A DNA stretch of 64,000 nt from an uncultured Acidobacteriota bacterium (GCA_963732655.1 CAVTAI010000006.1:34306-98305); one strand, 5' to 3'. Positions 18,617-63,420 are shown, counted from the stretch's first letter. A program made the numbers and translations. The notes: generated by a model from the letters alone, not told the origin.

Positions 18617-19609
18617 TCAATGCCCGGCCAGCTCGGCGACGATCGGCGCGAACGCTTCCATGTATCGCTGGGCGACGGTCACGTAGCTCACGCCGAACCG
18701 CTCACGGCGCTCCAGGAGGGTCTCGCACACCTGGTCGACCGACCCGAAAAGGGCGTGGGGATGGGTGGCGAAATCATCGACCGGCACGCCGAACCGCTGG
18801 GCCATGGTCTCGAGCTGCGCCGGCGCGTCGTCGCCGACGGCGACGAAATAGGCGCCGATCTCGATCTCCAGCTCGTCCAAGCGGTCCCCCGCGCCGGCGC
18901 GGATCCACTCGATCTTCCGCGCTGTCTGATCCGAGCCCGAGCCGGCCACGCTGGCGCCGCCGAGACGTCCCGACGAGTTGTCGAAGTTGACGCTGACGAT
19001 GTCGGCCTTCGCCCCGGCCAGACCCAGGACCTTGGGCGAGCCGCCACCGATCATGATCGGTGGGCCGGACCGGTCACCCGATCCCGGGCGTTGCACCGGG
19101 AGCGGTCGGCCGCTGAAACCCGACACGTCGACGTGGGTTCCGTGCTGCTCGATGGGCTCGCCACTCCAGTGGGCCCGCATGAGGTCGACCGTTTCGCGGA
19201 GCCGCTCGATCCGCACGCCGGGGCGCGCCATCGTGATGCCGAGTCCGTCGTACTCGTCCCGGACCCACCCGGCGCCGAGGCCGACCTCCAGCCGCCCACC
19301 CGACAGCAGGTCGAGCGTGGCCATCTCCTTCGCCAGCACGACCGGGTGGTGGTAGTCGCAGGCGAACACCCGGCACCCCACCCGCAAGGACGTGGTGACC
19401 GCGGCGGCGTACGCGATCGACACCACCGGCGACATGTCCACCGGTCGGTGCCCACTGGAGTCGGCGATCGGACCGGGCCCGAAGTAGTGATCAGTGCTGA
19501 ACAACGTGGCGTAGCCGAGCGACTCCACCCGCCGCACCAGACCCATCCACTCATCGGCTGTCCTGGCCTCGAACGCCTGCAAACCGAACCGGAACGGACG
19601 TGTCGTCAT
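18617..19609 (-). CDS. LLM-class (luciferase-like, F420/flavin-dependent) oxidoreductase
   Basis: Luciferase-like layout (LEVGLGAGW, MIGGGSPK). AAGGGGGAG precedes ATG 19609. Confidence 0.85.
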   Translation of the reverse strand: MTTRPFRFGLQAFEARTADEWMGLVRRVESLGYATLFSTDHYFGPGPIADSSGHRPVDMSPVVSIAYAAAVTTSLRVGCRVFACDYHHPVVLAKEMATLDLLSGGRLEVGLGAGWVRDEYDGLGITMARPGVRIERLRETVDLMRAHWSGEPIEQHGTHVDVSGFSGRPLPVQRPGSGDRSGPPIMIGGGSPKVLGLAGAKADIVSVNFDNSSGRLGGASVAGSGSDQTARKIEWIRAGAGDRLDELEIEIGAYFVAVGDDAPAQLETMAQRFGVPVDDFATHPHALFGSVDQVCETLLERRERFGVSYVTVAQRYMEAFAPIVAELAGH

Positions 19610-19655
19610 GGGTTTCTCCCCCTTCGATGTGACCGCAGGCCGGCCCACGTCCTAA

Positions 19656-19749: not shown

Positions 19750-21484
19750 ATGCTTGGTGATCGATGGATCTGTGACCGCGTCCCGACGGACCGCTTTCCC
19801 GACTACACGCGAGGCAACGCCGGCGAGGTGCTCGCCGATCCCGTCAGCCCGCTCGGCTGGACGTTCGGCTGGGAGGAAGGCGCCGTCCTCGGGTGCGTCG
19901 ACGGCTTCGAGCAGATGGGGATCTTCGACGCCAACGAGTACGCCACCCCGGCCGAGTCCTTCGGTCTGTTCGGCGGCTACTTCTACAACTCGCTGACGCA
20001 GAGCCGACTCTTCGGTGTCCGCAGCGGCGCCGGGTGGCAGGCCGTCGACCAGATGTTCTTCGACACCACCAGCCAGTCGATCCCGCCGTACGTCGAGCGG
20101 GACTGGCATGCGTCGCCGCGCCACACCGAGAAGCTGATCGGCATCATGGGATGGCTCACCACCCTCGACACCGTGCCCGAGATCGACCGGCAGAAGGTCG
20201 AGGCCAAGGCCCTGCGCGATAGCCGACCCGACCTGTCCACCCTCACTGATGCCCAACTCCTCGCTCGCGCCCGGAGCATCCAGCGGCACCTGCGGGCCAT
20301 GTTCTCCCAGGTGGTGTGGGCCTCGATGGGGAGCGGCATCGGCCCGGGGATTCTCGGCCCGATGATCGGCGAGTCCGATCCCGCCGCCCTCACCAAGCTC
20401 ATGACCGGTATCGGCGACGTCGACTCGGCCGACATCGCGGCCCAGATCTTCGACATCTCCCGCATCGTTCGCGCGTCACCCAGCGCTGATGGCCCAATTC
20501 GACGGTGACCTCGAAGGCCTGCTCGACCGGGTCGGCAAGTTGGACACGCCCGACGCCTTGGCGTTCCTCGCGTCCGTCGACGAGTTCCTGTACGAGCACG
20601 GCAGCCGCGGGCCCAACGAGTGGGACATCTACGCCTGGAGCTACGAGACGCGCCCCACGCTGTTGCTGCAGGCGATCGAGCGGGCCCGGGGCGCCGGCGA
20701 AGAATCGAACCCGGTTACCACCGTGGCCCGGGGAGCGGCCGAGCGCCAGCGCGTCATCGCCCACTACGAGGAGGTCTTCGCCGGCAATGACGAAGCCCTC
20801 GGCGGCCTCGGCATCGCCGTGAAGGCCATCGAGGTCTTCATGGCTGCCCGTGAGCGCTGCAAGTCGAGCAACATCCGCGCTCACGGAGAGGTGCGCCTGT
20901 GCTTCGCCGAGCTCGGAGCGCGCATGGCCGGCCGCGGGCACCTGGCCCACGATCGCCAGATCTTCATGCTGCTGTCGAGCGAACTCGATGCCTTCATGGC
21001 CGATCCCGGATCGTTCGCGACCACCCTCGAGGAGCGCGAACAGGACTACCTCGCTCTCTACGACCTCGATCCGCCCTACATCGTCGATGGCGTCGTGCTC
21101 CCGCTCGGCGAGTGGGCGCGCCGCAACAGCGGCGACGTCGAGATCGTGAAGGTCGGGGACGTGCTCCACGGGGTCGCCGGTTCACCCGGCACGGTGACGG
21201 GCACGGCCCGGATCCTGCTCGACCTGAACGATCCGAGCCGCCTCGAACCCGGCGACATCCTCATCTCCCCATCGACCGATCCGTCGTGGACTCCGCTGTT
21301 CCTGGCCGCCGGTGGCGTGATCACCAACATCGGCGCCATCGGGACCCATGCGGTGATCGTGAGCCGCGAGCTCGGCATCCCCTGCGTGCCCTCGATCCCG
21401 GACGCGACCCGCCGCATCCCCGACGGCTCCACGATCACCCTTGACGGCAGCATCGGCACCGTCACCATCGACGCCCTGCCGTGA
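19750..21484 (+). pseudogene. PEP-utilising (phosphohistidine swivel) enzyme, rifampicin-phosphotransferase-like but without an ATP-grasp; frameshifted at the CCC run 20479-20481
   Basis: The N-terminal 243 aa lie in ORF 19750..20508. The continuation ALMAQFDGD ... lies in ORF 20489..21484 and ends with the swivel motif GAIGTHAVIVSRELGIPCV. It is collinear with the paralog at 25382. Confidence 0.8.
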
Positions 21485-21524
21485 CGGGGCGCGCTCACCA
21501 CCATCGATCAGGAGCTCGCCCCAC

Positions 21525-21872
21525 GTGATCGCCATCATCGGGCACATCGACGTCGATCCCGCCGTGCGTGACGAGCTCGTCGCGTCGACCGCCGACCTCC
21601 AGCGCGCTACCCGCAGCGACGAGCCGGGGTGCCTGGCCTACACCATCGCCGCCGACCCGGCGGATGAGCGCCGCATCAGCATCGTGGAGCTGTGGGCCTC
21701 TCCCGCCGATCTCGATGCCCACTTCCAGCACCCCAACTTCCACGCCACCGGCGCCGCTCTCCGCTCCGTCTCTCGCCTCGGTGGTGGGTCGGCCAAGTAC
21801 CGCATCGATGCCACCGACCCTGTCAAAGGGCCCGACGGCGCCGCCTCGTCGACGTTCTGGTCGACGGTGTGA
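21525..21872 (+). CDS. antibiotic biosynthesis monooxygenase (ABM) domain protein
   Basis: About 115 aa with an ABM-like pattern (IIGHIDVDPAVRDE ... IVELWASPADLDAHF). AGGAG lies 10 nt upstream of GTG 21525. Confidence 0.7.
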   Translation: MIAIIGHIDVDPAVRDELVASTADLQRATRSDEPGCLAYTIAADPADERRISIVELWASPADLDAHFQHPNFHATGAALRSVSRLGGGSAKYRIDATDPVKGPDGAASSTFWSTV

Positions 21873-22705
21873 TCGATCCCGGCGACCACATCGAGATCCA
21901 TCACTTGCTGGCCCGCTACGGCCACCTGCTCGATGCCCGAGACTGGGATGCGTTCGCCGATCTGTTCGTCGCCGACGCCGTCGTGGACTACACCGGCGTG
22001 CGGGCGCCCAAGGTCTGTGTCGGTCGCGACGAGATCCTCGGCTACTTCGTACCCGCCAACCATCCTCAGGCGCACCACGTGACCAACATCGTCGTCACGC
22101 CGACCGCCGCCGATCGGGCCTCGGTGCACAGCAAGTTCGTCGTGCCCTTCGTCGGCCCGGCCCACACCCCGAAACGGCTCTACGGCGGCGACTACGAGGA
22201 CATCGTCGTGCGAACCGCAGACGGCTGGCGCTTCGCCGAGAAGCACGGCCGCAGCCGCTGGACCCATGTCTTGGAGGAGATCCATCCCATGTCCGACCGT
22301 GACTCCATCATCGACCTCGCCGTCGCCTACACGTGGGCGCTCGACACGAAGACCATGGAGGGGCTCCGCGCCGTCTTCCTCCCGGACGCCACGGCGTCAC
22401 TCCGCGGGGTGGAGTGCCGCGGCGTCGACGCCATCATCGAGCGCATCGGCGGCGCGATCCTCCGCCTCGACCGCACTCAACACCTCGTCGGCAACCACCA
22501 GGTCACCGTGGACGGTGATCGGGGGACACATCGGTGCCACCTCCAGAGCCAGCACGTCAAGGAGGGCACCGAAGGGGGCGACAACTTCATCGTCGGCGGC
22601 TACTACGAGGATCAGGTCGTGCGCACTCCGGGGGGCTGGCGGATCGCCCACCGCGTCATGCAACAGACGTGGACCGACGGCAATCCCGCCGTGACCAAGC
22701 GCTGA
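21869..22705 (+). CDS. tandem SnoaL/NTF2-like double-domain protein (or two genes with no intervening stop)
   Basis: GTG 21869 overlaps the ABM stop (GTGA). There are two similar halves. The second begins at ATG 22289, which is preceded by GGAGGAG. No stop separates the halves. Confidence 0.65.
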   Translation: MIDPGDHIEIHHLLARYGHLLDARDWDAFADLFVADAVVDYTGVRAPKVCVGRDEILGYFVPANHPQAHHVTNIVVTPTAADRASVHSKFVVPFVGPAHTPKRLYGGDYEDIVVRTADGWRFAEKHGRSRWTHVLEEIHPMSDRDSIIDLAVAYTWALDTKTMEGLRAVFLPDATASLRGVECRGVDAIIERIGGAILRLDRTQHLVGNHQVTVDGDRGTHRCHLQSQHVKEGTEGGDNFIVGGYYEDQVVRTPGGWRIAHRVMQQTWTDGNPAVTKR

Positions 22706-22731
22706 CGGAACCTCACCGGCGCCGAGACCGG

Positions 22732-23346
22732 CTACTCGGGTTCGAGGCCGGCGATGCGATCGGCGATGGCACCGACCTCCTCGACGAATCGGCGGGGCCC
22801 GAGGGCCCGGTAGTTGCTGTCGCGAGTCAACATCGACGCGGCCGTCGTCTCGAGCAACGACACGAGTCCCACGGCGATCACACCCGCGTCGGCCATGGCC
22901 AACCGGCCGCGACTGGCGCGCACAGCGTGCCGGAACTCCCCGACGAGTTGGTGGCGAACCTCCCGCCGAAGGGCCTCAACCATCGGGTTCAACCCGTTCG
23001 ACGAGACGAAGTACACGGCACCGGCGGGGCGCCGGCGGGAGACGAACTCCACGACGTCGGACAGGAGCGCGCGCACCGCGTCAGGCGTCGGCCCGGCGGC
23101 TGCGGTCCCGGGCGCCCGCACGTCGCGCATGTGGCCGAGCAGGTCGTCGCCGAACTGCCGCATCCCTTCCAGAAGGATCTGTTCCTTGGAGGCGAAGTGG
23201 TAATAGACGGCCGCCGGTGTCATCGCGACCTTGGCGGCGATGTCGGCGATGGTGACGTCGTCGATCGAGTTGGTCGCGAAGAGTCGGATCGCCGCTTCGA
23301 TCACCTCGGCTCGCCGCGACGGGCGATGGGCAGGTCGGCGATCCAC
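22732..23346 (-). CDS. TetR family transcriptional regulator
   Basis: HTH TIADIAAKVAMTPAAVYYHFASKEQI. Confidence 0.9.
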   Translation of the reverse strand: MDRRPAHRPSRRAEVIEAAIRLFATNSIDDVTIADIAAKVAMTPAAVYYHFASKEQILLEGMRQFGDDLLGHMRDVRAPGTAAAGPTPDAVRALLSDVVEFVSRRRPAGAVYFVSSNGLNPMVEALRREVRHQLVGEFRHAVRASRGRLAMADAGVIAVGLVSLLETTAASMLTRDSNYRALGPRRFVEEVGAIADRIAGLEPE

Positions 23347-23375
23347 CGAAGCGTCGATGTCCGTACAGTAGGCGT

Positions 23376-24032
23376 GTGCGTGATGAAACTGCTGATCCAG
23401 CGCGCCAACCGGCGCCCAGCCAACCAGCGCGCCAACCGGCGCACCGGCCGTCCCGCCGTCACGAGATCATCGACGCGGCGATCAGGATGTTCGCCCGGCA
23501 GGGCTTCGTCGACACCTCGATCGGCGACATCGCCGTCGACGCCAACATGGCCGCCACCGCCGTGTACTACCACTTCTCCGGCAAGGAGGAGCTCTTCAAC
23601 GCTGCCGTGGGTCGGGTGTTCGACGCCATCAGCGATGTCGTGTCCGGCGTGCGAGGCGGGGTGAGCGAGGTCGATGACGCGACCCTCGACCGGGTGATCG
23701 ACGCCGTGTGGATCTGGGTCGACACGCATCCCGACGAGGCCACCTTGGTCCACCTCCAGCTCCCGGGCGCCACCCGGCAGGTCACGGCCAAACGCCAGGA
23801 GTTCGAGGAGCTGCATGTCGAGCGGGCGTTCGGATACCTGGGTCCGCGAGTCACCCGTCGAGTGCCCGCGGCGCGCCGCGCCGTGGAGACCCTCTCGGTC
23901 CGGACCCTGGTCGATCTGCTCATCTCGGTGCACTCGATGCGCCTCGCCGACGGGCCGCTGAGCGGTGAACCCAGCGCTGAGCTCCAGGCCTCGGTCCGCC
24001 GCCTCGCCCATCGGTTGGTGGCCGTCGCCTGA
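23376..24032 (+). CDS. TetR family transcriptional regulator (paralog of 22732..23346)
   Basis: HTH SIGDIAVDANMAATAVYYHFSGKEEL. The N-terminus contains a 19-bp direct repeat (23397-23415 and 23424-23442). Confidence 0.85.
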   Translation: MRDETADPARQPAPSQPARQPAHRPSRRHEIIDAAIRMFARQGFVDTSIGDIAVDANMAATAVYYHFSGKEELFNAAVGRVFDAISDVVSGVRGGVSEVDDATLDRVIDAVWIWVDTHPDEATLVHLQLPGATRQVTAKRQEFEELHVERAFGYLGPRVTRRVPAARRAVETLSVRTLVDLLISVHSMRLADGPLSGEPSAELQASVRRLAHRLVAVA

Positions 24033-24054
24033 GATCAAGGTTCGGCGGCGGACC

Positions 24055-25284
24055 TCAGATCGCCTCGACCCAGTCCACCAAGAGATCGGGCACTCGGAGA
24101 TCCTCGCGGATGTGTTCGGGGCCGATCACCTTGTCGATCCAGGCGTGGACGTGCCAGATCCGGCGCTCCTGATAGTTCACCACCTGCCCACCGTGCGCCG
24201 CGTGCTCCAACGAGCGCTGGATCGGCTCGAGATTGCTGTAGTCCTCGTCCATGATCAGGTCGAACCGATCCAGGCGTCGCTTCCAGATGTCGGGATGGGG
24301 CATCTTGCCCGCGCCCCAGTCCGCGGCGAACCAGACGATGTCGAGGCGGGTGCGATCGATCGCGGTCGGCCAGAAGACCAGGAAAGGGAACCCACGACCA
24401 TCGAGCGGCGTGATGAGGTTCGGGAAGATGCCGAACGCCGGTTGGATCGACTCCCGCATCAGCGCGGGAAGGTGGGCCAGGGTGGCCAGCTGGTCGCGCT
24501 GGTCGGTGCGGGTGCCGGCCCGCACCGGGGACAACATGTTCTGATGGCCGTGGTCGAACAACGAGACGACGGTGCCCCGGGTGTCGAGGGTCGGTGCGAT
24601 GGTCTCGGGATGGATCGTGCGGGCGTGGTACACCTCGAGGAACCCTTCGGCCACCACCTTCCAATTGCAGCGCAGCTCGACGGTCTTGGTATCGATGACC
24701 CGCACCGGTGACCGGGCCACATCGGCCATCAGGCGCGGCAGCGGATCCAGCCAGTCGAGCAGTGCGCCGGCCTCGGGATCGAGGTTCACGAACCACCACC
24801 CACCCCATCGCTCGCAGCGCACGGGCGGCAGGCCGCGATCGGCGGTACACAAGCCGACGAAGTCGCGCTCGTCGGGCACGCGAACGAGCCGTCCCTCCAG
24901 GTCGTAGGTCCACGAGTGGTACTGGCACACCAGGAGTCGCGCCTGGCCACCGGTACCCCGCACGACCGGCGCCCCCCGGTGCCGACAGGCGTTGCGGAAG
25001 GCCCGCACCTCGCCATCGGTCCCGCGCACCACGATCACGGCGGCGCCGGCGATGTCGCACACGTGGTACCCGCCTGGTTCGGCGAATTGGGAGTCGTGGG
25101 CGGCGTACACCCACGAGCGTCCGAACAGGTGGCGCTGTTCGAGCTCGAAGAACGACGGGTCCGTGTACCGGCCGATCGGCAGATCCGGGAGCACCGGGAA
25201 ACCGTCGGGCGGCCCGGTCCGCTCACGCTCGTAGTCGGATCGCTCGTCGAACCAGTCGAGGTAGTCCGTGTCCATCGACTGCAT
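24055..25284 (-). CDS. Rieske oxygenase alpha subunit (paralog 2)
   Basis: CRHRG ... CQYHSW; iron motif EVYHARTIH. Confidence 0.9.
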   Translation of the reverse strand: MQSMDTDYLDWFDERSDYERERTGPPDGFPVLPDLPIGRYTDPSFFELEQRHLFGRSWVYAAHDSQFAEPGGYHVCDIAGAAVIVVRGTDGEVRAFRNACRHRGAPVVRGTGGQARLLVCQYHSWTYDLEGRLVRVPDERDFVGLCTADRGLPPVRCERWGGWWFVNLDPEAGALLDWLDPLPRLMADVARSPVRVIDTKTVELRCNWKVVAEGFLEVYHARTIHPETIAPTLDTRGTVVSLFDHGHQNMLSPVRAGTRTDQRDQLATLAHLPALMRESIQPAFGIFPNLITPLDGRGFPFLVFWPTAIDRTRLDIVWFAADWGAGKMPHPDIWKRRLDRFDLIMDEDYSNLEPIQRSLEHAAHGGQVVNYQERRIWHVHAWIDKVIGPEHIREDLRVPDLLVDWVEAI

Positions 25285-25381
25285 CTTGCCAGCCCTCGCG
25301 ACGTGACGCAGGACACTTGAGGCGGCCTACAGTTACTGCCGCACGACACCGTCTCACGACACATGTCTCAGGAGGACGCCG

Positions 25382-27144
25382 GTGAGCACTGGAAGCCCCA
25401 ACGACCCCGCGGCCTGGTTCGGTGATTCCACGTTGGGTGAGCGCCTCCCGGCCTGGACCCGAGGCAATGCCGCCGATGTCTTCCCCGACCCGTTCAGCCC
25501 GCTGGCCCAGACGATGGTGCTGCGCAACGGCATGTGCACCGGTCTGCGAGATGCGTACATCTCCATCGGCGCGCTGTCCTTCGACGAGTTCGAGGACCCG
25601 GTCCGTCCCGACCTGTTCAAGATGTTCGGCGGCTATCTGTACAACCCGCTCACGCTCACCCGGGTGCTCGGTGCCCGCATGCCCGGCGCGTCCCCGAGAT
25701 GATCGACAAGGCGTTCTTCGACGAGCGCGACGACGTGCCGCCCTACGACTACCAGTCCTGGCACGACTCACCGGAGCACGAGGCCCGCCTCGGCGAATCC
25801 ATGGCCTGGACCATGGCGACGGAGTCGCTGCCCGAGCTCGACGCCGACAAGTCGTTGGCGCGTGCGCAGCGAGCCAACCGCCCCGACCTCGCCCGTCTGA
25901 GCGACGCCGCCCTCATCGCCCGCGCCCGCTCCATGGTGCCGGTGCTGCAGCAGGTGTTCGAGAACGCCATGCGGGTGTCGTCGCTGTCGTCGCTCGGCCC
26001 CGGCGCGCTCGGCGCCGTGTGCGAAGCCCTCGGCGACCCCACGATGGCCATCCGCCTCCTGGCCGGCATCGACGTCGACTCGGCCGAGCCGTCGCACGCC
26101 ATGTGGGACCTCGGCCGCGTCGCGGCCGCCTCCCGTGACGTGGCCGCCGCGTTCGACACCGGGGCCGACAACGTCCTCGACGCGCTCCGCGCCGCGGGAA
26201 GCGCCGACGCGCTCGACTTCTTGTCTCGCTTCGACCAGTTCCTCCACGACTACGGCGCCCGAGCGCAGAACGAGTACGACCTGATCTCGCTCTCGTGGGA
26301 GGTCGAGCCCCGGATCGCGCTGGCCGCCATCGACCTGATGCGCAAGAGCGACGAGACCCAGGCTCCCGCCGTGCGCCACGACACAGCGGTGGCCGAACGC
26401 GATCGCCTCGCCGCCGAGATCGGCGAGCAGATCGCGGGCGACGCGGAGACGGCCGGCCTGTTCGAAGCCGCGCTGCGCTCGGCCCGGTTGTTCCTGAGCG
26501 GGCGCGAGCGCGCCAAGACCAACTCCGTCGTCGTGATCAACGAGATGCGGGTGGCGCTGCGGGAACTCGGTCGGCGCCTGGTCGAACGCGGCCACCTGGA
26601 CCAGATCGAGCACGTCTTCATGGTGACCGACGACGACCTCGACCACCTGCGCCACGACCCCGCCGTGTTCGGCGACACGGTCCGCTCCCGCTGGAACCAG
26701 TACCGCTCGTTGTTCGACTACGAACCGGTGTTCATCGTCAACGGGCGGGTGCCGGCGCTGACCGAGATGACCAACCGTGCCGACAAGTCAGCGGCGGTGA
26801 GCACGGTCACCGCCGGCACGGTCCTCGCCGGTGCCGCCGGCTCTGGCGGCTCCGCCACGGGCCGCGCCCGGGTGATCCTCGACGCCTCCCACCCCGAGGG
26901 CCTGGAGCCGGGCGACGTGTTGATCGCGCCGCAGACCGACCCGTCGTGGGTGCCGTTGTTCGTCCCGGCGGCCGCCGTCGTGGTCAACGTCGGCGCCATG
27001 GGCAGCCACGCCATGATCGTGTCGCGCGAGCTCGGGATCCCTTGCGTGGTGTCGGTCGCCGACGCCACCCACCTCATCCCCGACGGGGCGACGGTGACCG
27101 TCGATGGCACCGCCGGCACCGTCACCGTCGTGTCGGTCGTTTAG
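25382..27144 (+). pseudogene. PEP-utilising (phosphohistidine swivel) enzyme, rifampicin-phosphotransferase-like but without an ATP-grasp; frameshifted at the C run 25692-25695
   Basis: The N-terminal 105 aa lie in ORF 25382..25702. PEMIDKAFFDE ... continues in ORF 25534..27144 and ends with GAMGSHAMIVSRELGIPCV. AGGAGG precedes GTG 25382. Confidence 0.8.
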
Positions 27145-27724
27145 GCGGCGGTGTCGGCCACCGGACCGTCAGGGACTCCGGGGTCCACGCCGGCCAGCGC
27201 GGAGCACCGACGATGCCGCCGTCGACGAACGTCGCGATGGTGACCGGCCCCGGCCCGGTGTTGTCGAACACTTCAGCGCTGTCCGCCAACTCGATCATGA
27301 GCACGACGTTGCCCCACAGCCGACGCCATCGTGAGCGGATCTTGTCCTCGGGAACGTCGTGACCTCCTGCGGCCACTCGTGCCCGCACTCGCTCGATCGA
27401 GTACTCCTCCGGCACGGCGACGACGATGAGATGCACGTAGTAGCCGGCGTCTCGAGCCCTGCGTACCAGGTCGATCTTCGACTGGTGGGAGGCGACCGTC
27501 TCGGCGATGAACGATTCGCCGCGGGCGAGGAGCGCCTCACGGGCGGTCTCCGCGGCCTGGGCCGCTTCGTAGCCGTGCGACAGCGGATCCCGGGGCCAGC
27601 GGTCGGCGGCGATCACATCGGCGTTCACGAACGCAACCCCGGGCCGAAGGTCGGCCAGGACGAACTCGACGAATGTCGACTTGCCCGCCCCATTGGGACC
27701 CACGACGAGGTCCAGGCGGCTCAC
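27122..27724 (-). CDS. zeta-toxin-like P-loop kinase (toxin candidate)
   Basis: Walker [10 protein letters not shown] near the N-terminus; about 200 aa. The start overlaps the upstream small gene (GTGA). Confidence 0.75.
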   Translation of the reverse strand: MSRLDLVVGPNGAGKSTFVEFVLADLRPGVAFVNADVIAADRWPRDPLSHGYEAAQAAETAREALLARGESFIAETVASHQSKIDLVRRARDAGYYVHLIVVAVPEEYSIERVRARVAAGGHDVPEDKIRSRWRRLWGNVVLMIELADSAEVFDNTGPGPVTIATFVDGGIVGAPRWPAWTPESLTVRWPTPPPKRPTRR

Positions 27725-28089
27725 AAGACCGTCGTCGACCCGTCCGGCAGTCGGCGGACCATACGTCCCTCGTCGTCCATGACGACCGCGGTGACGCCCC
27801 TCGCGGCGAGACGATCCGCGAACGAGATCTCGTTGGCGGCGGTAGAGATCGCCGCATTGATGGCGGCGTTGGCGACGACCCGTTCGCCCGGGTCAAGGCT
27901 CCCAAGGGTGACTGAACCGGCGATCGCTTGCTGGATGCGACGCTGGGACAAGCTGGTCTGCCGGTCGAAGAACATGCCGAATCGAGCCCAGTGCTCGAGC
28001 TGCTTCGCCGCCGAGCGGTGCTCCTCGCGACCTTCGGCCTCCGCCGCCTCGATCAGGTCGACGGGGAGCCGGGTCGTCTTGGTCGTCAT
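27721..28089 (-). CDS. ParD-like antitoxin candidate
   Basis: 122-aa protein directly upstream of the P-loop toxin and overlapping it. GGAGG lies 8 nt upstream of ATG 28089. Confidence 0.65.
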   Translation of the reverse strand: MTTKTTRLPVDLIEAAEAEGREEHRSAAKQLEHWARFGMFFDRQTSLSQRRIQQAIAGSVTLGSLDPGERVVANAAINAAISTAANEISFADRLAARGVTAVVMDDEGRMVRRLPDGSTTVL

Positions 28090-28103
28090 CGGCACACCTC
28101 CAG

Positions 28104-28142
28104 ATGTGTCATTGTGCCACAGGCAGAGGCGTTGTGTCACAA
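28104..28142 (-). promoter_or_regulatory. candidate autoregulatory operators (TGTG-N-CACA repeats) upstream of the toxin-antitoxin pair
   Basis: TGTGCCACA at 28113-28121, TTGTGTCACAA at 28132-28142, and the related ATGTGTCAT at 28104-28112. Confidence 0.45.
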
Positions 28143-28206
28143 CTTGGTTGCTGAGGTGTCCCGGGGCCGCCGCGACGTTGTGCGCGCCACCTTCACGGGT
28201 CGGCAC

Positions 28207-29022
28207 CTACGTGCCCGGTACGCCGATCATGCCGGACGCCGAGGCTGAGAACCGCTCGGAACCACCGTTGACGCTGCGGCCCCCGTCGACCACGAGTGTG
28301 TGGCCGTTGACGAGCCTCGACTCGTCGCTGGCCAGGTACACCGCCGCGTGGGCGATGTCCATCGGGTCCGAGGCCACGCCCCAGCGTTCCCGAGATCGCT
28401 CGGCGACGGCCCCGAGGTTGGTGGCATCACCGGTCAGAGCCAGAGCAGTGAGCGGCGTGGGGATGTTGCCAGGGGCGATGGCATTGGCCCTCACACCCTG
28501 CACTCCGAGCTCGCTGGCCACCGACTTGGTGAACCCGACCACGGCCGTCTTGGCCGCGGTGTATGCGTGAGGTCCGAGCCCGCCGATAACCCCCGCGATG
28601 CTCGACGTCGAGATGATCGAGCCACTCCCCTGGGCCACCATCACCCGGGCCGCGTGTTTGCTGCCGTAGAACACCGAGTGCAACAACACGTCGATCGTGG
28701 CCATCCACGCCGAGGTCTCCGTCTCGGCGATCGGGCCCACGGCCCCGACCACGCCGGCGTTGTTGACCATGACGTCGAGCCGCCCCCACGTCGCCACTGC
28801 GAGATCGACGGCCGCCGCGACATCGGACTCCGACGTCACGTCGCACCGGATGAACCGGACGGCCTGCGGGTAGCGGGCGGCCACCTCGGTGCCCCGCTCG
28901 ACCTGGATGTCGGCCAGCACGACGGAGGCTCCCTCCGCGACGAACCGCTCCACGATCGCTTCGCCGATGCCGCTGGCCCCGCCGGTCACCACCGTCGACT
29001 TGCCATCGAGTCGTCCCACCAT
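28207..29022 (-). CDS. SDR family oxidoreductase
   Basis: TGGASGIGEAI Rossmann motif, YTAAK catalytic motif, NAIAPG. Confidence 0.85.
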   Translation of the reverse strand: MVGRLDGKSTVVTGGASGIGEAIVERFVAEGASVVLADIQVERGTEVAARYPQAVRFIRCDVTSESDVAAAVDLAVATWGRLDVMVNNAGVVGAVGPIAETETSAWMATIDVLLHSVFYGSKHAARVMVAQGSGSIISTSSIAGVIGGLGPHAYTAAKTAVVGFTKSVASELGVQGVRANAIAPGNIPTPLTALALTGDATNLGAVAERSRERWGVASDPMDIAHAAVYLASDESRLVNGHTLVVDGGRSVNGGSERFSASASGMIGVPGT

Positions 29023-29023
29023 C

Positions 29024-30202
29024 TCAGCGCTCCCCACGGCTGTCACGAGCGGTGCCGGCTCGTCTGATCATCGTCGCCATGGTCTCGTGGTAGTGGGCGA
29101 TCTTGCACTCTCGTTCGTTGAGGATGTTCGCCCGGTAGGCGCTCGACCGCTTGGTCCGAGCGAGCTGCTCGTAGATGCCGATGTCCTCGGCGACCACATC
29201 TTTGAGGTGCTGCCAGTGCGCCGACATGCGGGCGCGGTACTCGGCGTAGTCGGGATCGTCGGTGTCGCCGGGATAGGCGATCTCCCAGCACAGGAACCGG
29301 GTGCGATCGACGTCGATCGGGATCGGGTTGAAGACCTGGATGTGCTCGGGGTTGCAGTTGAACACCGTGTTCGGGAACACGACGTAGTGGCAGATCGCGT
29401 ACTGGTGGTGATCCCAGTCCTCCGCCAGCTTCTCGCGGTGCTGCTGGCGGGGCACGAAACACATGTAGTTGTGGTCGTTGACGATGTGAAAGGTGGTGTC
29501 ACGAGCGGACTTCACCCAGTCGGCGCCGACGTTGTGCAGCTCGCTCGTGTGGTAGATCTCGTTGAAGCCGTCGACGATGGCCTTGTAGCTGACGGGGACA
29601 TCCCACTCCAGCACCTCCACCAGCTCCATGTCCTCCATGCGGTACTGGCCGAGGTCGGCCAGGATGTCCGGGCCGATCCAGTCCCGCAGGCTCGGCGCCT
29701 GGTCCGGGCCGGCCAGGTTCACGAACACCCAGCCGCCCCACTCGTCGGCGGCGACCGCCGGAGCGCGCACACCCTCGAGGTGTTCGGGGGCGAAGTCCTG
29801 CCGCTCGGGAACGCCGACGAGCTTCCCCGTGGTGTCGTACACCCAGCCGTGGTAGGGGCACGTGAACCGCCGGGCGCCGCACCCGGACCATTCGGTGACG
29901 AACGACGGGCCCCGGTGTCGGCACACGTTGTGGAACGCGGCCAACGAACCATCCGGCTGGCGGGTGATGACCACCGTCTCGCCGTGACTCTCGAAGCTCA
30001 GCCAATCCCCCGGGTCCGCCACCTGCGTCGATCGACCGGCGAGGAGCCACGTGGTGTTGAGCACCTGCTGGCGTTCGAGCTCGAACTGCATCGGGTCCGT
30101 GTAACAGGACCGATCGAGCACTGCCGGTCCGTAGTCCGGCAGGTTCGGGACCGACGGGCCCAGCCGGACCGGCACCTCACCACGTGTTGGCACATGAACC
30201 AT
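29024..30202 (-). CDS. Rieske oxygenase alpha subunit (paralog 3)
   Basis: CRHRG ... CPYHGW; iron motif NEIYHTSELH. Confidence 0.9.
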   Translation of the reverse strand: MVHVPTRGEVPVRLGPSVPNLPDYGPAVLDRSCYTDPMQFELERQQVLNTTWLLAGRSTQVADPGDWLSFESHGETVVITRQPDGSLAAFHNVCRHRGPSFVTEWSGCGARRFTCPYHGWVYDTTGKLVGVPERQDFAPEHLEGVRAPAVAADEWGGWVFVNLAGPDQAPSLRDWIGPDILADLGQYRMEDMELVEVLEWDVPVSYKAIVDGFNEIYHTSELHNVGADWVKSARDTTFHIVNDHNYMCFVPRQQHREKLAEDWDHHQYAICHYVVFPNTVFNCNPEHIQVFNPIPIDVDRTRFLCWEIAYPGDTDDPDYAEYRARMSAHWQHLKDVVAEDIGIYEQLARTKRSSAYRANILNERECKIAHYHETMATMIRRAGTARDSRGER

Positions 30203-30226
30203 CGGGCTGCCCCCTTGACCGTTCCA

Positions 30227-30261
30227 CTCGACGGGCCCGACTCGACGGGCCCGAATCGACG
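30227..30261. repeat. 14-bp tandem repeat CTCGACGGGCCCGA, 2.5 copies
   Basis: Identical copies at 30227-30240 and 30241-30254, then the partial copy atcgacg. Lies in the divergent Rieske/TetR intergenic region. Confidence 0.8.
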
Positions 30262-30276
30262 TTTCACCTAACAGAT

Positions 30277-30286
30277 GTTATATAAC
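30277..30286. promoter_or_regulatory. perfect palindrome GTTATATAAC, 5 nt upstream of the TetR start
   Basis: This is the only strongly AT-rich stretch in this intergenic region. It could be an operator and/or a -10 element for a leaderless TetR mRNA. Confidence 0.5.
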
Positions 30287-30291
30287 CACAC

Positions 30292-30873
30292 ATGCCACGC
30301 GCCGTCGACGCCGACCAGCGACGGACGGAGTTCACCGACGCCGCCTCCCGCATCATCGCTCGCTCCGGCGTCGAAGCGGCGACCATGCGCGAGGTGGCCG
30401 CCGAGGCCGGTTGGACCACGGGCGCCGTCACCCACTACTTCGCGGACAAACGGGAGCTGCTGCTGGCCACCCTCCAGGACTCCCTGGCCAACCGGCGGGC
30501 CCAGCGTCCGGACCCGGGGGCGGCGAACCCCGAGGAGCGACTGTGGGCCTCCCTCGTCGGCGCCCTGCCGTTGGACGACGACCGGCGACGCCACTGGCTG
30601 GTCACGCTGGCCTTCGCCACCCAGGCCGCCGCCGATGCCGAACTGGCCACCGCGCAGCGCGGTGCCTACCGGGAGTTCCGGGGCCACATCCAGAGCCTGG
30701 TCGAAGCAGCAGGACTGGCGGACGCCCGGGCCAGCCAGACGCGGGCCGAGCAACTCATCGCCGCCGCCGACGGCATCGCCATCCAGGCCCTGTTCGACCC
30801 GGGGGCGTGGACTCCCGCCCGGCAGGCGTCGACCCTCGAGGCGATGTACCGCACGGCGCTCGGTCGCCACTGA
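30292..30873 (+). CDS. TetR family transcriptional regulator
   Basis: HTH TMREVAAEAGWTTGAVTHYFADKREL. Confidence 0.9.
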   Translation: MPRAVDADQRRTEFTDAASRIIARSGVEAATMREVAAEAGWTTGAVTHYFADKRELLLATLQDSLANRRAQRPDPGAANPEERLWASLVGALPLDDDRRRHWLVTLAFATQAAADAELATAQRGAYREFRGHIQSLVEAAGLADARASQTRAEQLIAAADGIAIQALFDPGAWTPARQASTLEAMYRTALGRH

Positions 30874-30888
30874 GGATCGAGGCCGAGC

Positions 30889-33276
30889 ATGACTTCATGG
30901 AGTGGTTGTAGAGTTACTCCCCCGATGGGGACTTCTCTGTTCCCCCCCATGGGGGGCCACGACACCGACGAACTGACGGCACGGATCGAAGGCGCGGTGC
31001 GCGCCGCGTCCGACGCGGATCCCGGCCGGATCCTGGCCGCGCTCCGGGCGGTCGGACCCGACGAGCTCGGCGTGTTCCTCCACCGATCGCTCGACGTCCC
31101 CGACGGCGTGACGGCCATCGGCTCGGGTCTGCCGGCCTCCCCCGGTGCGGCCTCAGGCGCCATCGTCTTGAGTGCCGAGAGCGCCATGACCGCCGCCGAC
31201 ACCGGCGCCGCCGTGATCCTCGTCCGGACCGAGACGACACCCGACGACGTCCACGGCATGCTGGCCAGTCGCGGCATCTTGACGTCGCGAGGCGGGCTCG
31301 TGAGCCACGCCGCCGTCGTCGCCCGGGGCTGGGGCATCCCGGCGATCGTGGGGGCCGCCGGAGTCGTCGTCGACGGCGACACCGTGCTCGTCGATGGGCA
31401 CCGCCTGCGCGAAGGCGACATCATCACGATCGACGGGACGACCGGCCACATCTACACCGGCGAGCTCGCCACGACCGGCGCCGATGCTCCACCCGAGCTC
31501 GACACGCTGCTCAGCTGGGCGGACGACGTGGCCTGCGGCCACGTACAGGTGCGGGTGAACGCCGACACCGAAGGCGATGCTGCCCACGGTCGACGCCGCG
31601 GCGCCCGGGGCATCGGGCTGTGCCGTACCGAGCACATGTTCCTGGCCGCCGATCGGCTCGCCCTGATGCGCCGCTTCATCCTCAGCGACGATGTCGCCAC
31701 CGAGACCGACGCCCTCCGCGCACTCGAGTCAGCGCAGGTGACGGACTTCGAGACGCTCCTCGAAGCCATGGACGGCCTCCCGGTCACCATCCGGCTGCTC
31801 GATCCTCCGCTCCACGAGTTCCTCCCCGATCTCCTCGATCTCGTGGCCCGCGAGGCCCGCGGCGAGTTGACCTCGGACGACGATCTCGAACTGGCCGCCG
31901 TTCGCCGCCTGCACGAGACGAACCCGATGATCGGCACCCGGGGCGTGCGCCTGGGCATGGTCCGGAGCGGCCTCTACGAGATGCAGGTCCGGGCGCTGTG
32001 CACCGCCGCCGCCCGCCTGTTCGACCGGGGTCTGCACCCGCACGTCGAGATCATGATCCCCCTCGTCGTCGACGCCGAGGAGCTGAGGATCGCCCGCGGG
32101 TGGGTCACCGGCGTGCTCGACACCATCGGCCACCCCGAGCTCGCCTCGAATGTGGTCACCGTCGGAGCCATGATCGAGACCCCCCGCGCCGCGCTCACCG
32201 CAGGTGCCTTGGCCGAACACGCCGACTTCTTCTCGTTCGGCACGAACGACCTCACCCAGATGACCTACGCCTTCAGTCGTGACGATGTCGAGGCCAAGCT
32301 CCTGCCGTTGTACTTGGCCCACGGCATCTTGCCGGCCAACCCCTTCGGCGTCCTCGACCGAGACGGTGTCGGCCAACTCGTCCGCCTCGCCTGCGACGCC
32401 GCCCGCGCCGCCAAACCGGGCATCAAGCTGGGCGTGTGCGGTGAACACGCCGGCGACCCGGCGTCGGTCGAGTTCCTGGTCGCGGTCGGCGTCGACTCGG
32501 TGAGCTGCTCCCCTTATCGCGTCCCCATGGCCCGCCTCGGCGTCGCCCAGGCGCTCCTCGACACCGGCCGTGTCGATCCCACCACGGTGACCTTCTCGGC
32601 GGCACCCGAATCCACCACGTCCGCGCCCGCTCCCGGATTCGAGACGAGCTCCGTCAGCGCCGACGCGGGCACCAGCGACGTGATCGACGTCGGCCGCGTC
32701 CTGCACACGCTGCGCATCCGCGGCTTCGTCTCCCCCGCCGGGTTCGAGGCGAGCCTGGGCGTCCATCCCGCCGAGATCCTCGAGGGCCTCGTCGAATCGG
32801 GCCAGGCGCGGTACCTGGAACCTCGCCAGCTCTACGGTCTGCTCCCTCCGGGCAAGGAGCTCCTCGAGTCGCTCCTGAGCGAGTTCGCCACTCCGGAGGT
32901 GACGGCGGCCCTGCACCACGACTACGACAAGTTCCTCGCCCTCAACGCCGAGCTGAAGACGCTGTGTACCGACTGGCAGATGCGCGCCGGCGAGCCCAAC
33001 GACCACACCGATGCCGCCTACGACGCCGGCTGCGTCGAGCGTCTCGTGGCGCTCACCGATCAGACCGCCCCGGTCGTCGACGCCATGGCGTCGACCCTGC
33101 CGCGATTCCGGCGTTACGTCGACCGACTCCGCGCTGCGGTCGAGCAGGTCCTCGCCGGCCAGCACAAACGCTTCACCGGGGTCATGTGCGAGTCGTACCA
33201 CGACGTGTGGATGGAGCTCCACGAGGACCTCATCGTCCTTCAACGCATCGATCGCACGGTCGAGGGCAGCTTCTGA
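30889..33276 (+). CDS. PPDK-like PEP-binding protein without an ATP-grasp domain, plus a roughly 230-aa C-terminal extension (alternative starts 30925 and 30949)
   Basis: GLPASPGAASG, swivel His motif GGLVSHAAVVARGWGIPAIVG, and PEP-barrel motifs CRTEHMF, GTNDLTQ, CGEHAGDP. I see no GGKG-type nucleotide-binding N-terminus. The C-terminal extension looks winged-helix-like. Confidence 0.8.
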   Translation: MTSWSGCRVTPPMGTSLFPPMGGHDTDELTARIEGAVRAASDADPGRILAALRAVGPDELGVFLHRSLDVPDGVTAIGSGLPASPGAASGAIVLSAESAMTAADTGAAVILVRTETTPDDVHGMLASRGILTSRGGLVSHAAVVARGWGIPAIVGAAGVVVDGDTVLVDGHRLREGDIITIDGTTGHIYTGELATTGADAPPELDTLLSWADDVACGHVQVRVNADTEGDAAHGRRRGARGIGLCRTEHMFLAADRLALMRRFILSDDVATETDALRALESAQVTDFETLLEAMDGLPVTIRLLDPPLHEFLPDLLDLVAREARGELTSDDDLELAAVRRLHETNPMIGTRGVRLGMVRSGLYEMQVRALCTAAARLFDRGLHPHVEIMIPLVVDAEELRIARGWVTGVLDTIGHPELASNVVTVGAMIETPRAALTAGALAEHADFFSFGTNDLTQMTYAFSRDDVEAKLLPLYLAHGILPANPFGVLDRDGVGQLVRLACDAARAAKPGIKLGVCGEHAGDPASVEFLVAVGVDSVSCSPYRVPMARLGVAQALLDTGRVDPTTVTFSAAPESTTSAPAPGFETSSVSADAGTSDVIDVGRVLHTLRIRGFVSPAGFEASLGVHPAEILEGLVESGQARYLEPRQLYGLLPPGKELLESLLSEFATPEVTAALHHDYDKFLALNAELKTLCTDWQMRAGEPNDHTDAAYDAGCVERLVALTDQTAPVVDAMASTLPRFRRYVDRLRAAVEQVLAGQHKRFTGVMCESYHDVWMELHEDLIVLQRIDRTVEGSF

Positions 33277-39840: not shown

Positions 39841-39848
39841 CGGCGCCT

Positions 39849-41464: not shown

Positions 41465-41497
41465 AACGCCCCCTTCATCGATGTCATCCCGTGCTCC

Positions 41498-45436: not shown

Positions 45437-45491
45437 CAAGGTCCCCCTCTGGGTGGTGTCACGAATCCTGCACGGCACAGGCTCCGAGCTA

Positions 45492-45505
45492 ATCAACCGG
45501 TTAAT
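45492..45505. promoter_or_regulatory. ATCAACCGGTTAAT operator-like 14-mer
   Basis: Identical, as its reverse complement, to 53415-53428. Lies in a divergent intergenic region. Confidence 0.55.
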
Positions 45506-45522
45506 ATATTCGGTCGACGGTC

Positions 45523-45532
45523 ACACTAGTGT
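45523..45532. promoter_or_regulatory. perfect palindrome ACACTAGTGT
   Basis: Same intergenic region as the 14-mer. ACACTAGT also occurs at 11211-11218 in another divergent intergenic region. Confidence 0.35.
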
Positions 45533-45566
45533 CGCGATCGTCATCAGGGGGAGTCGAGGGGGATTC

Positions 45567-63404: not shown

Positions 63405-63420
63405 GGAGCCGGATCGTAGC

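What the first reader, a model, noticed from the sequence alone, without database searches (positions are those of the whole stretch)
19750..33276. Three phosphohistidine swivel-domain proteins with no recognisable ATP-grasp domain, each next to a Rieske oxygenase and a TetR
Two paralogs (19750..21484 and 25382..27144) match the substrate-binding plus swivel-His portion of rifampicin-phosphotransferase / phenylphosphate-synthase-alpha-type enzymes. They end in G(A)xG(T/S)HAxIVSRELGIPCV. Their N-termini start directly in the helical substrate domain, and I see no GGKG-type nucleotide-binding region. The third protein (30889..33276) has the PPDK swivel-His domain and the PEP/pyruvate TIM barrel (CRTEHMF, NDLTQ, CGEH), again without an ATP-grasp, so it is built like an Enzyme-I-type PEP-driven autokinase. 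No ATP-grasp gene lies in the window. My inference is a PEP-driven His-phosphorelay that phosphorylates a small-molecule substrate, such as a hydroxylated product of the neighbouring oxygenases. Alternatively the ATP-binding partner is encoded elsewhere, as in split phenylphosphate synthase.
Basis: inference. Interest (0 to 1): 0.75.

Follow-up and report, generated by a model that had tools for sequence, protein, structure and literature searches.

The report
PEP-driven swivel-histidine kinase relay candidate
Two rifampicin-phosphotransferase-like proteins that lack an ATP-binding domain sit beside half of a pyruvate-phosphate-dikinase that keeps only its PEP-binding part, and comparison with other genomes suggests they form a kinase system powered by PEP instead of ATP.

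Summary
The domain observation holds. P1 (19750..21484) and P2 (25382..27144) carry only an Rph-like helical domain plus a swivel-His domain. P3 (30889..33276) is the PPDK swivel plus PEP barrel, with an unnoticed, conserved 200-aa C-terminal domain (wHTH plus helical bundle, no Pfam or PDB match). No ATP-grasp is encoded anywhere in the 64 kb.

One caveat: P1 and P2 each carry a 1-nt frameshift at a C-run. These are probably assembly errors, because orthologues are intact.

The P1/P2 family is widespread. Outside Acidimicrobiia its members lie next to VadK-type donors (PPDK ATP-grasp plus swivel). Those donors carry, or are accompanied by, the same C-terminal domain found on P3. That domain also occurs fused to P2-like proteins. 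A Nanopelagicales locus pairs two P2-like genes with this domain and a PPDK whose ATP-grasp has decayed.

P3 therefore looks like the PEP-using counterpart of an ATP-using donor in a three-module phosphorelay. The substrate, the His-to-His transfer and the role of the new domain are inferred. P2-P3 adjacency is confined to close relatives. I score this a new variant of two-component small-molecule dikinases, with interest about 0.68.

The parts
19750..21484 (+). P1: Rph-like substrate-binding domain plus C-terminal swivel-His domain (~577 aa after correction). It is interrupted by a +1 frameshift at about 20480-20490.
   Evidence: ORFs and frames. Pfam PF00391. The L002 orthologue (577 aa, intact) matches as two tblastn HSPs in frames 1 and 2. 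Indel at a C-run.
21347..21349 (+). P1 putative phospho-carrier histidine (motif GAIGTHAVIVSRELGIPCV).
   Evidence: This position is invariant in alignment A2.
25382..27144 (+). P2: paralog of P1 (41% identity), ~587 aa after correction. It has a -1 frameshift (1-nt deletion in a C5 run) at about 25685-25692.
   Evidence: Intact orthologues of 584-587 aa at 82-87% identity.
27007..27009 (+). P2 putative phospho-carrier histidine (motif GAMGSHAMIVSRELGIPCV).
30889..33276 (+). P3: PPDK-derived swivel domain plus PEP/pyruvate TIM barrel plus a new C-terminal domain, with no ATP-grasp. The true start is probably 30925 or 30949.
   Evidence: Pfam. PDB sequence and fold matches. Structure model at pLDDT 82. 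120 orthologues of 755-818 aa.
31096..31488 (+). P3 PPDK-type swivel domain. The catalytic His140 codon is at 31306..31308 (RGGLVSHAAVVARGWG).
31501..32562 (+). P3 PEP/pyruvate-binding TIM barrel with all PPDK catalytic motifs (CRTEHMF 31621, RLLDPPLHEF 31792, ETPRAA 32170, GTNDLTQ 32239, CGEH 32437).
32671..33273 (+). P3 C-terminal domain: winged helix plus five-helix bundle with conserved motifs LHxLRxxG, WQ..PNDHxDxxYD and SYHDVWMELHEDL. It has no Pfam, NCBIfam or PDB match.
   Evidence: Structure at pLDDT 92. No fold match (best E 0.097). No family match. Family of 1324 representatives. Alignment across architectures.
24055..25284 (-). Rieske oxygenase alpha subunit, divergent from P2.
   Evidence: Pfam PF00355 plus PF00848. 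Syntenic in L002 and L004.
29024..30202 (-). Second Rieske oxygenase alpha subunit, in an operon with the SDR at 28207..29046.
28207..29046 (-). Short-chain dehydrogenase.
30292..30873 (+). TetR (BetI-type C-terminal domain) immediately upstream of P3. The pair is also kept in L002, L004 and L166.
22732..24032 (.). Divergent pair of TetR regulators (22732..23346 on the minus strand, 23376..24032 on the plus strand) between P1 and the first Rieske gene.
21525..22705 (+). ABM monooxygenase (21525..21863) and two SnoaL-like genes (21869..22273, 22289..22705) downstream of P1.
18617..19648 (-). Luciferase-like monooxygenase, divergent from P1 and syntenic in L002 and L004.

Best explanation
P1, P2 and P3 are parts of a modular swivel-histidine phosphotransfer system related to rifampicin phosphotransferase and the two-component phenol/acetophenone dikinases. 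Here the phosphoryl donor uses PEP rather than ATP.

Step 1 (homology, with catalytic residues conserved): P3's TIM barrel binds PEP and Mg and phosphorylates His140 of its own PPDK-type swivel domain, as in PPDK or Enzyme I.

Step 2 (inferred): P3~P associates with P1 or P2, probably through its C-terminal wHTH/helical domain. The phosphoryl group passes to their swivel histidines.

Step 3 (homology to RPH and HpeH): that swivel domain rotates onto the helical Rph-like domain and phosphorylates a hydroxyl of a small molecule. The substrate is presumably an intermediate of the surrounding TetR-controlled Rieske/SDR/ABM/SnoaL/luciferase-like catabolic genes.

In most other lineages the same acceptor family and the same C-terminal domain work with a VadK-type donor (PPDK ATP-grasp plus swivel). 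P3 is the complementary PPDK half, recruited as the donor.
For: - Domain content and intact catalytic motifs of all three proteins.
- No ATP-grasp in the 64 kb.
- P2-like genes lie beside PPDK_N+swivel+Cterm proteins in Dehalococcoidia, a Bradyrhizobium-labelled MAG and an unclassified MAG (L018, L033, L043, L057).
- They lie beside separate VadK-like and Cterm genes in Nocardia, Gordonia and Amycolatopsis (L039, L040, L055, L064).
- Fusions exist: Rph-like+swivel+Cterm (P0282, P0284, P0311, P0318, P0357), followed by a VadK-like gene in L168.
- A single 1184-aa ORF in L032 holds PPDK_N, swivel, Rph-like domain and a second swivel.
- L041 has two P2-like genes, a standalone Cterm and a PPDK with a decayed ATP-grasp but an intact swivel and PEP barrel.
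- The P1...P2...P3 synteny is kept in L002, L004 and L166.
- The catalytic His is conserved in every donor and acceptor swivel.
- HpeH alone catalyses phosphotransfer between substrates, and VadK autophosphorylates on His (PMC12167813, PMC13400623).
Against: - There is no biochemical evidence for any step.
- P3 orthologues at 64-65% identity (L001, L165, L167) and a 48%-Cterm relative in a 2.2-Mb genome (L170) have no P2-like gene within 10 kb.
- 0 of 32 Acidimicrobiia P2-like loci have any donor or Cterm gene within reach.
- Swivel-to-swivel His transfer has no precedent that I found.
- P1 and P2 lack the Cterm domain, so the docking mode is unknown.
- Both acceptors are frameshifted in this assembly.
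- An ATP-type donor could be encoded elsewhere in the genome.
Confidence: 0.5

Rival explanations
1. P1 and P2 are acceptor subunits of ATP-dependent two-component dikinases whose ATP-grasp donor (VadK-type or PpsB/HpeI-type) is encoded elsewhere in the genome. P3 has an unrelated job, and its adjacency is a lineage-specific accident.
For: - In other phyla the adjacent partner is ATP-grasp-containing.
- An ATPG+swivel+Cterm protein whose Cterm is 49% identical to P3's exists (P0245).
- P3 orthologues often sit in unrelated contexts, for example after 2-oxoglutarate dehydrogenase.
- Most Acidimicrobiia P2-like genes have no donor nearby.
Against: - P3 carries the same Cterm domain that marks donors and acceptors of this system.
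- L041 independently pairs a PEP-barrel donor with P2-like genes.
- No ATP-grasp is present in 64 kb.
Confidence: 0.25
2. P3 is a PEP-sensing regulator. PEP-dependent autophosphorylation of its swivel His controls DNA binding by the C-terminal winged-helix domain, as with EI-Ntr or PRD-type control, and so regulates the neighbouring catabolic genes.
For: - The Cterm begins with a wHTH.
- Standalone homologues are annotated as MarR family, and one passes Pfam MarR.
- P3 sits among TetR-regulated operons.
Against: - Most members do not reach MarR thresholds, and the fold search matches only the wHTH piece.
- The domain is fused to, or encoded beside, swivel-domain enzymes in four architectures, which points to protein-protein or phosphotransfer function.
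- Many conserved His/Asp/Arg residues lie in the helical bundle rather than in the recognition helix.
Confidence: 0.12
3. P1 and P2 are genuine pseudogenes, so the system is decaying in this organism and only P3 is functional.
For: - Both acceptors carry frameshifts, whereas the other 17 genes syntenic with L002 are intact.
Against: - Both indels are single bases at C-runs.
- A P450 (near 3888) and E1-beta (near 14240) are also frameshifted in the window.
- The related long-read contigs L004 and L166 show similar split genes.
- Protein identity of 81-87% to L002 orthologues and high GC3 persist on both sides of each shift.
Confidence: 0.08
4. P3 and a VadK-like protein carrying the same Cterm domain heterodimerise to rebuild a split PPDK for PEP/pyruvate interconversion, unrelated to P1/P2.
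For: - The two halves are complementary, and both architectures carry the Cterm.
Against: - Each half keeps its own swivel His.
- No VadK-like gene is in the window.
- The Cterm co-occurs with P2-like proteins in all donor types.
Confidence: 0.05

Closest known systems
Two-component small-molecule dikinases: phenylphosphate synthase PpsAB, CreHI and HpeHI/AcvAB (PMC12167813)
   Same: The acceptor subunit consists of an Rph-like substrate-binding domain plus a C-terminal swivel His, without an ATP-grasp. The phosphoryl donor is supplied in trans. The setting is a catabolic gene cluster. HpeH alone can shuttle phosphate between substrates.
   Different: The known partners (PpsB, CreI, HpeI) are ATP-grasp-only proteins of PEP-synthase type, encoded adjacently. 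Here no ATP-grasp is present. The candidate donor is a PPDK swivel plus PEP barrel with its own histidine, and there is an extra C-terminal domain. P1/P2 match the PpsA-like NCBIfam models only over the swivel.
Rifampicin phosphotransferase RPH (PDB 5FBS/5HV1; PMC4844700)
   Same: The second half of the RIF-binding domain and the swivel His domain align (E 2e-36). The swivel mechanism is the same.
   Different: RPH is one chain with an N-terminal ATP-grasp, and P1/P2 lack it. The NCBIfam RPH score is 131 against a cut-off of 999. The first ~275 residues show no detectable sequence match to RPH.
VadK (M. tuberculosis Rv1127c; PMC13400623)
   Same: Both are truncated PPDKs that retain the swivel His and autophosphorylate, and P3 is the mirror-image truncation. 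In other genomes VadK-family proteins (P0345 passes NF004531) carry, or neighbour, P3's C-terminal domain and P2-like genes.
   Different: VadK keeps the ATP-grasp and lacks the PEP barrel, whereas P3 keeps the PEP barrel and lacks the ATP-grasp. VadK is proposed to regulate methylcitrate-cycle enzymes, not to feed an Rph-like kinase. Whether its tightly binding operon partner Rv1126c belongs to the Cterm family was not tested.
[quoted passage not shown]
   Same: The architecture is a swivel His plus a PEP-binding TIM barrel without an ATP-grasp. PEP-driven autophosphorylation is followed by His-to-His transfer to downstream carriers. One general donor could serve several substrate-specific acceptors. 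EI can phosphorylate rifampicin in vitro (PMC13099321).
   Different: P3 is 46% identical to PPDK but only ~24% identical to EI, and it lacks the HPr-binding subdomain. It scores 151 bits against a TIGR01417 cut-off of 342. No HPr or EII genes are nearby.
Pyruvate phosphate dikinase
   Same: The swivel and PEP domains are 46% identical, and all PEP/pyruvate catalytic residues are kept.
   Different: The entire nucleotide-binding domain is missing. The regulatory Thr before the His is replaced (VSH rather than TSH). A 240-aa C-terminal extension has been added. The score is below the TIGR01828 cut-off (616 against 843).

Membership tests
Two-component small-molecule dikinase, acceptor (PpsA/CreH/HpeH-type) subunit | Rph-like helical substrate-binding domain followed by a swivel domain with a catalytic His; no ATP-grasp in the chain. 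| tested here: met
   PF00391 only. PF27448 Rph_4th in orthologues. RPH alignment. His invariant.
Two-component small-molecule dikinase, acceptor (PpsA/CreH/HpeH-type) subunit | Adjacent gene for an ATP-grasp-only partner (PpsB/CreI/HpeI, ~40 kDa). | tested here: not met
   No PPDK_N anywhere in the window nor within 10 kb in L002 and L004. Where a partner is adjacent in other taxa, it is VadK-type with its own swivel.
Two-component small-molecule dikinase, acceptor (PpsA/CreH/HpeH-type) subunit | Close sequence relationship to PpsA/CreH/HpeH (~45% pairwise identity among them). | tested here: inconclusive
   NCBIfam PRK08296 models, which I take to be PpsA-like, match only the last ~105 residues at 48-95 bits against cut-offs of 578-730. 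The PpsA, CreH and HpeH sequences themselves were not available for comparison.
Rifampicin phosphotransferase (RPH) | [quoted passage not shown] | tested here: not met
   ATP-grasp absent. NF041857 scores 131 bits against a cut-off of 999.
Pyruvate phosphate dikinase (TIGR01828) | Three domains: nucleotide-binding ATP-grasp, swivel His and PEP/pyruvate TIM barrel. | tested here: not met
   P3 matches model positions 361-864 only, at 616 bits, below the cut-off of 843. The structure model shows no ATP-grasp.
Pyruvate phosphate dikinase (TIGR01828) | PEP/pyruvate-site residues (Arg of CRTEH, Arg/Asp of RLLDPP, Glu of ETPR, Asn-Asp of TNDL, Cys of CGEH) and the catalytic His. | tested here: met
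   All are present and invariant in 41 orthologues.
PTS Enzyme I (TIGR01417) | Swivel His plus PEP-binding barrel without a nucleotide domain. | tested here: met
PTS Enzyme I (TIGR01417) | HPr-binding alpha subdomain, HPr/EII partners and a family-level sequence score. | tested here: not met
   151 bits against a cut-off of 342. The N-terminal 75 residues are PPDK linker helices. No PTS genes are in the window.
VadK / truncated PPDK (NF004531) | PPDK-type ATP-grasp plus swivel His; no PEP barrel. | tested here: not met
   P3 scores 108 bits against a cut-off of 456 and has the opposite truncation. The donors next to P2-like genes in other taxa do meet it (P0345, 679 bits).
MarR-family transcription factor (for the P3 C-terminal domain) | Pfam MarR/MarR_2 match above threshold and the MarR dimer fold. 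| tested here: not met
   No Pfam hit for the window domain at E<=5. Only 1 of 5 standalone homologues reaches the MarR threshold. Foldseek's best hit is E 0.097, and only the wHTH aligns.

The most novel reading that the evidence does not exclude
Actinomycetota and Chloroflexota possess a PTS-like phosphorelay with three modules that has not been described before. A PPDK-derived autokinase, ATP-driven (VadK-type) or PEP-driven (P3-type), hands phosphate to Rph-like swivel kinases that phosphorylate small catabolic substrates. A new wHTH/helical domain acts as adaptor or histidine-phosphotransfer intermediate. If this holds, the M. tuberculosis virulence factor VadK and its partner Rv1126c would belong to the same system, possibly with an Rph-like acceptor such as the Rv2047c-type protein.
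Probability: 0.3. Interest if true: 0.85.

Novelty: new variant of a known kind. Interest (0 to 1): 0.68.

Why it matters
Small-molecule dikinases of the RPH/PpsA/HpeH type are known only as ATP-dependent enzymes. A PEP-driven version would link catabolic or xenobiotic phosphorylation directly to the PEP pool, as the PTS does for sugars, and would show PPDK being split into either half to build new kinases.

The architecture network found here also gives the orphan VadK family a testable partner set: an Rph-like acceptor plus a new 200-aa domain that is currently mis-annotated as MarR. It also defines a large uncharacterised domain family (about 1300 representative clusters).

Tried and rejected
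- Exact look-ups of the window's own P3 found nothing on record.
- The single metagenome scan with the P3 alignment was swamped by canonical PPDKs through the IGLCRTEH pattern. It returned no P3 orthologue, so it gave no context statistics.
- I tried to show that M. tuberculosis Rv1126c belongs to the Cterm family. The profile search returned Gordonia, Nocardia, Rhodococcus and Amycolatopsis proteins but no M. tuberculosis protein in the top 120. The papers give no sequence or domain information. This remains a lead only.
- MarK turned out to be an unrelated UPF0261 kinase.
- A fold search of the Cterm model gave no significant PDB match, so a specific HPt-like or DinB-like assignment cannot be supported.
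- I considered and rejected a hidden ATP-grasp in the P1/P2 N-termini or upstream of P3. Pfam, my HMMs and the structure model show none.
- I compared contig lengths between the P3 and P2 hit lists as a proxy for shared contigs. Only the window and L002 contigs are shared.

Full report
**What is in the window.** The window is 69% G+C. Its proteins' closest relatives come from Ilumatobacteraceae and other Acidimicrobiia MAGs.

- P1 and P2 each have a single Pfam hit, PF00391 (PEP-utilizers, the mobile swivel domain), at their C-terminus.
- P3 has PF00391 plus PF02896, the PEP-binding barrel.
- None has PF01326 (PPDK_N).

Orthologues of P1/P2 carry the newer Pfam family PF27448 'Rph_4th' in front of the swivel. 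A profile of the family aligns to Listeria rifampicin phosphotransferase residues 566-865, E 2e-36. The N-termini start with TRGNA.(E/D)V..DP.SPL. This is the motif that follows directly after the ATP-grasp in a full-length RPH-like protein. P1 and P2 are 41% identical.

P3 aligns to PPDK residues ~346-874 at 46% identity. It keeps every PEP/pyruvate-site motif and the catalytic His, and these are invariant in 41 orthologues.

**No ATP-grasp in the window.** I scanned all GC3-supported ORFs of the 64 kb against Pfam. I also scanned all six frames with ATP-grasp HMMs that I built from PEP synthases, an RPH-like protein and PPDK-type partners. No nucleotide-binding ATP-grasp is encoded anywhere in the window.

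First, neither paralog is an intact ORF in this sequence:
- P1 changes frame near 20480-20490, and P2 changes frame near 25685-25692.
- Compared with orthologous DNA, P2 has CCCC where L004 has CCCCC. P1 has one extra base at a CCC run.
- A P450 (~3888) and the E1-beta gene (~14240) are also frameshifted.
- Related long-read-style contigs show split genes as well.
- Orthologues are intact at 577-587 aa.

I read these as homopolymer assembly errors. However, of the 19 genes syntenic with L002, only P1 and P2 are affected, so recent pseudogenisation is not excluded.

Second, P3 has a 240-aa C-terminal extension:
- It is as conserved as the catalytic domains.
- It folds confidently (pLDDT 92) into a winged helix plus a five-helix bundle.
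- It has no Pfam or NCBIfam match and no significant PDB fold match.

**The families elsewhere.** The P1/P2 family (~575 aa, no ATP-grasp) is widespread. It occurs in Acidimicrobiia, Nanopelagicales, Gordonia, Nocardia, Dietzia, Amycolatopsis, Actinomadura, Dehalococcoidia and Dormiibacterota, often as tandem copies.

P3 belongs to a family of 755-818-aa 'putative PEP-binding proteins' of Acidimicrobiia with the same architecture.

The C-terminal domain of P3 defines a family of about 1300 representative clusters. Most are standalone ~200-aa proteins annotated 'hypothetical' or 'MarR family' in Mycobacteriales and relatives. The domain also occurs fused in three contexts (Pfam):
- swivel + PEP barrel + Cterm (the P3 type);
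- PPDK_N + swivel + Cterm (VadK-like; P0345 passes the NCBIfam model of the Rv1127c family);
- Rph-like domain + swivel + Cterm (P0311 aligns to a P2 orthologue over residues 24-115 and 210-536).

**Gene neighbourhoods that link the modules.**
- In species-representative genomes, P2-like genes lie directly beside PPDK_N+swivel+Cterm genes in L018, L033, L043 and L057.
- They lie beside separate VadK-like and Cterm genes in Nocardia, Gordonia (two loci) and Amycolatopsis.
- In a Solirubrobacteraceae MAG, an Rph-like+swivel+Cterm gene is followed immediately by a VadK-like gene.
- In a Dormiibacterota MAG, one 1184-aa ORF holds PPDK_N, a PPDK-type swivel, the Rph-like domain and a second swivel.
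- In a Nanopelagicales MAG (L041), two P2-like genes are followed by a standalone Cterm gene and a PPDK-like gene. Its swivel and PEP barrel are well conserved. Its ATP-grasp has lost the GGKGANL and SMPGMMDT motifs and no longer matches Pfam PPDK_N.
- The catalytic histidine is kept in all donor and all acceptor swivel domains.

The acceptor (P2-like), a PPDK-derived donor with its own swivel His, and the Cterm domain therefore form a recurring three-module system. The donor is usually ATP-grasp-based. In P3 and in L041 it is PEP-barrel-based.

**Limits of the linkage for this window.**
- The P1...Rieske-P2-SDR-Rieske-TetR-P3 arrangement is conserved in L002 and L004, where P2 is 82-87% identical. 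In fragmentary form it is also seen in L166.
- P3 orthologues at 64-65% identity (L001, L165, L167) have no P2-like gene within 10 kb. Neither does a P3-type protein in a 2.2-Mb genome, where it follows 2-oxoglutarate dehydrogenase.
- Among loci of at least 9 kb, 0 of 32 Acidimicrobiia-labelled P2-like loci have a donor or Cterm gene nearby, against 10 of 25 in other taxa.

This pattern fits a general donor serving many dispersed acceptors, as Enzyme I does. It fits equally well a P3 with an independent role.

**Most likely mechanism (confidence about 0.5).**
1. PEP phosphorylates His140 of P3. This rests on homology and intact catalytic residues.
2. The phosphoryl group is relayed to the swivel His of P1 or P2, with the Cterm domain mediating association or transfer. 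This step is inferred from fusions and neighbourhoods.
3. The acceptor swivel delivers the phosphate to a small-molecule hydroxyl bound in the Rph-like domain. This follows from homology to RPH and HpeH (PMC4844700, PMC12167813).

The substrate is unknown. The surrounding genes suggest a catabolic intermediate: two Rieske alpha subunits, SDRs, ABM, SnoaL, luciferase-like monooxygenases and four TetR regulators. The window as a whole holds at least six Rieske oxygenases, three P450s, acyl-CoA ligases, an acyl-CoA dehydrogenase and thiolase/ChsH2-like genes. Loci in other taxa hold acyl-CoA ligases, CoA-transferases, hydratases and several phosphatases.

**Rivals.**
- An ATP-type donor is encoded elsewhere and P3 is unrelated (0.25).
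- P3 is a PEP-sensing wHTH regulator (0.12).
- P1 and P2 are true pseudogenes (0.08).
- P3 plus a VadK-like protein form a split PPDK (0.05).

**Relation to what is known.**
- The acceptors work like the PpsA/CreH/HpeH subunits of two-component dikinases. They fail the feature 'adjacent ATP-grasp-only partner', and they match the PpsA-like NCBIfam models only over the swivel.
- P3 works like Enzyme I but is by sequence a truncated PPDK. It falls below the curated cut-offs of PPDK, Enzyme I and VadK models.
- P3 is the mirror image of VadK, the ATP-grasp+swivel truncation recently shown to autophosphorylate on His (PMC13400623).
- That paper notes that VadK's operon partner Rv1126c improves its solubility and needs 2 M NaCl to be removed. 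Whether Rv1126c is a Cterm-family member could not be tested here.
- Full-text searches found no description of a PEP-dependent member of this kinase class or of the Cterm domain.

I therefore rate the finding as a new variant of a known kind, with interest 0.68.

Noticed in passing
window 27125..28206 (- strand): A zeta-toxin/AAA_33 gene (27125..27724) and a ParD-like antitoxin gene (27724..28206) are inserted between P2 and the SDR. The toxin's 3' end overlaps the 3' end of P2 convergently. The insertion is absent from the syntenic contigs L002 and L004.
   Followed up: partly
window ~3780..4110 and ~13860..14260: There are further frameshifts. The heme-binding C-terminus of the P450 at 2833.. 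(FGYGIHFCVGAALARLE) is in another frame, and the N-terminal ~110 residues of the E1-beta subunit are out of frame with 14222..14905. This suggests an indel-prone (long-read) assembly.
   Followed up: partly
window, whole: The window is a dense catabolic island:
- at least six Rieske oxygenase alpha subunits without beta subunits (7791-9497, 9973-11142, 24055-25284, 29024-30202, 38641-39969, 40076-41605);
- three P450s;
- two acyl-CoA ligases;
- several SDRs and luciferase-like monooxygenases;
- an acyl-CoA dehydrogenase;
- a thiolase/ChsH2-like pair (61825..63584);
- a sugar-type ABC transporter (44273..48224).
   Followed up: partly
window 32671..33273; loci L039, L040, L055, L064: The ~200-aa wHTH plus helical-bundle domain forms a large uncharacterised family (1324 representative clusters). 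Members are usually annotated 'MarR family' or 'hypothetical'. The family has conserved PNDHxDxxYD and SYHDxWxELH motifs that suggest a ligand, metal or phosphoryl site rather than plain DNA binding.
   Followed up: partly
L032 8186..11737: A Dormiibacterota ORF of 1184 aa fuses a PPDK ATP-grasp, a PPDK-type swivel, an Rph-like substrate domain and a second swivel. It is a natural fusion with two phospho-carrier histidines in one chain.
   Followed up: partly
L041 515..10717: A Nanopelagicales locus has two P2-like genes, a standalone Cterm gene and a full-length PPDK-like gene whose ATP-grasp motifs are degenerate. It may be an evolutionary intermediate between PPDK and the P3 architecture.
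   Followed up: partly
P0357 / NCBIfam NF004520: The best NCBIfam match of a P2-like+Cterm fusion is the C-terminal part of the 854-aa 'sugar epimerase family protein' model PRK05865. From memory, not checked here, this model corresponds to M. tuberculosis Rv2047c. If so, it hints at a possible Rph-like acceptor for VadK in mycobacteria.
   Followed up: no
window ~61250..61350 (- strand): The SnoaL-like gene at 61250..61804 ends in a threefold tandem peptide repeat (TARELGERAQV x3), which indicates a short in-frame tandem duplication at its 3' end.
   Followed up: no
L170 6301..12313: In a streamlined 2.17-Mb Ilumatobacteraceae-type genome, found identical in many samples, the P3-type gene lies directly downstream of the fused 2-oxoglutarate dehydrogenase gene. 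This hints at a housekeeping or central-metabolic role for P3.
   Followed up: no
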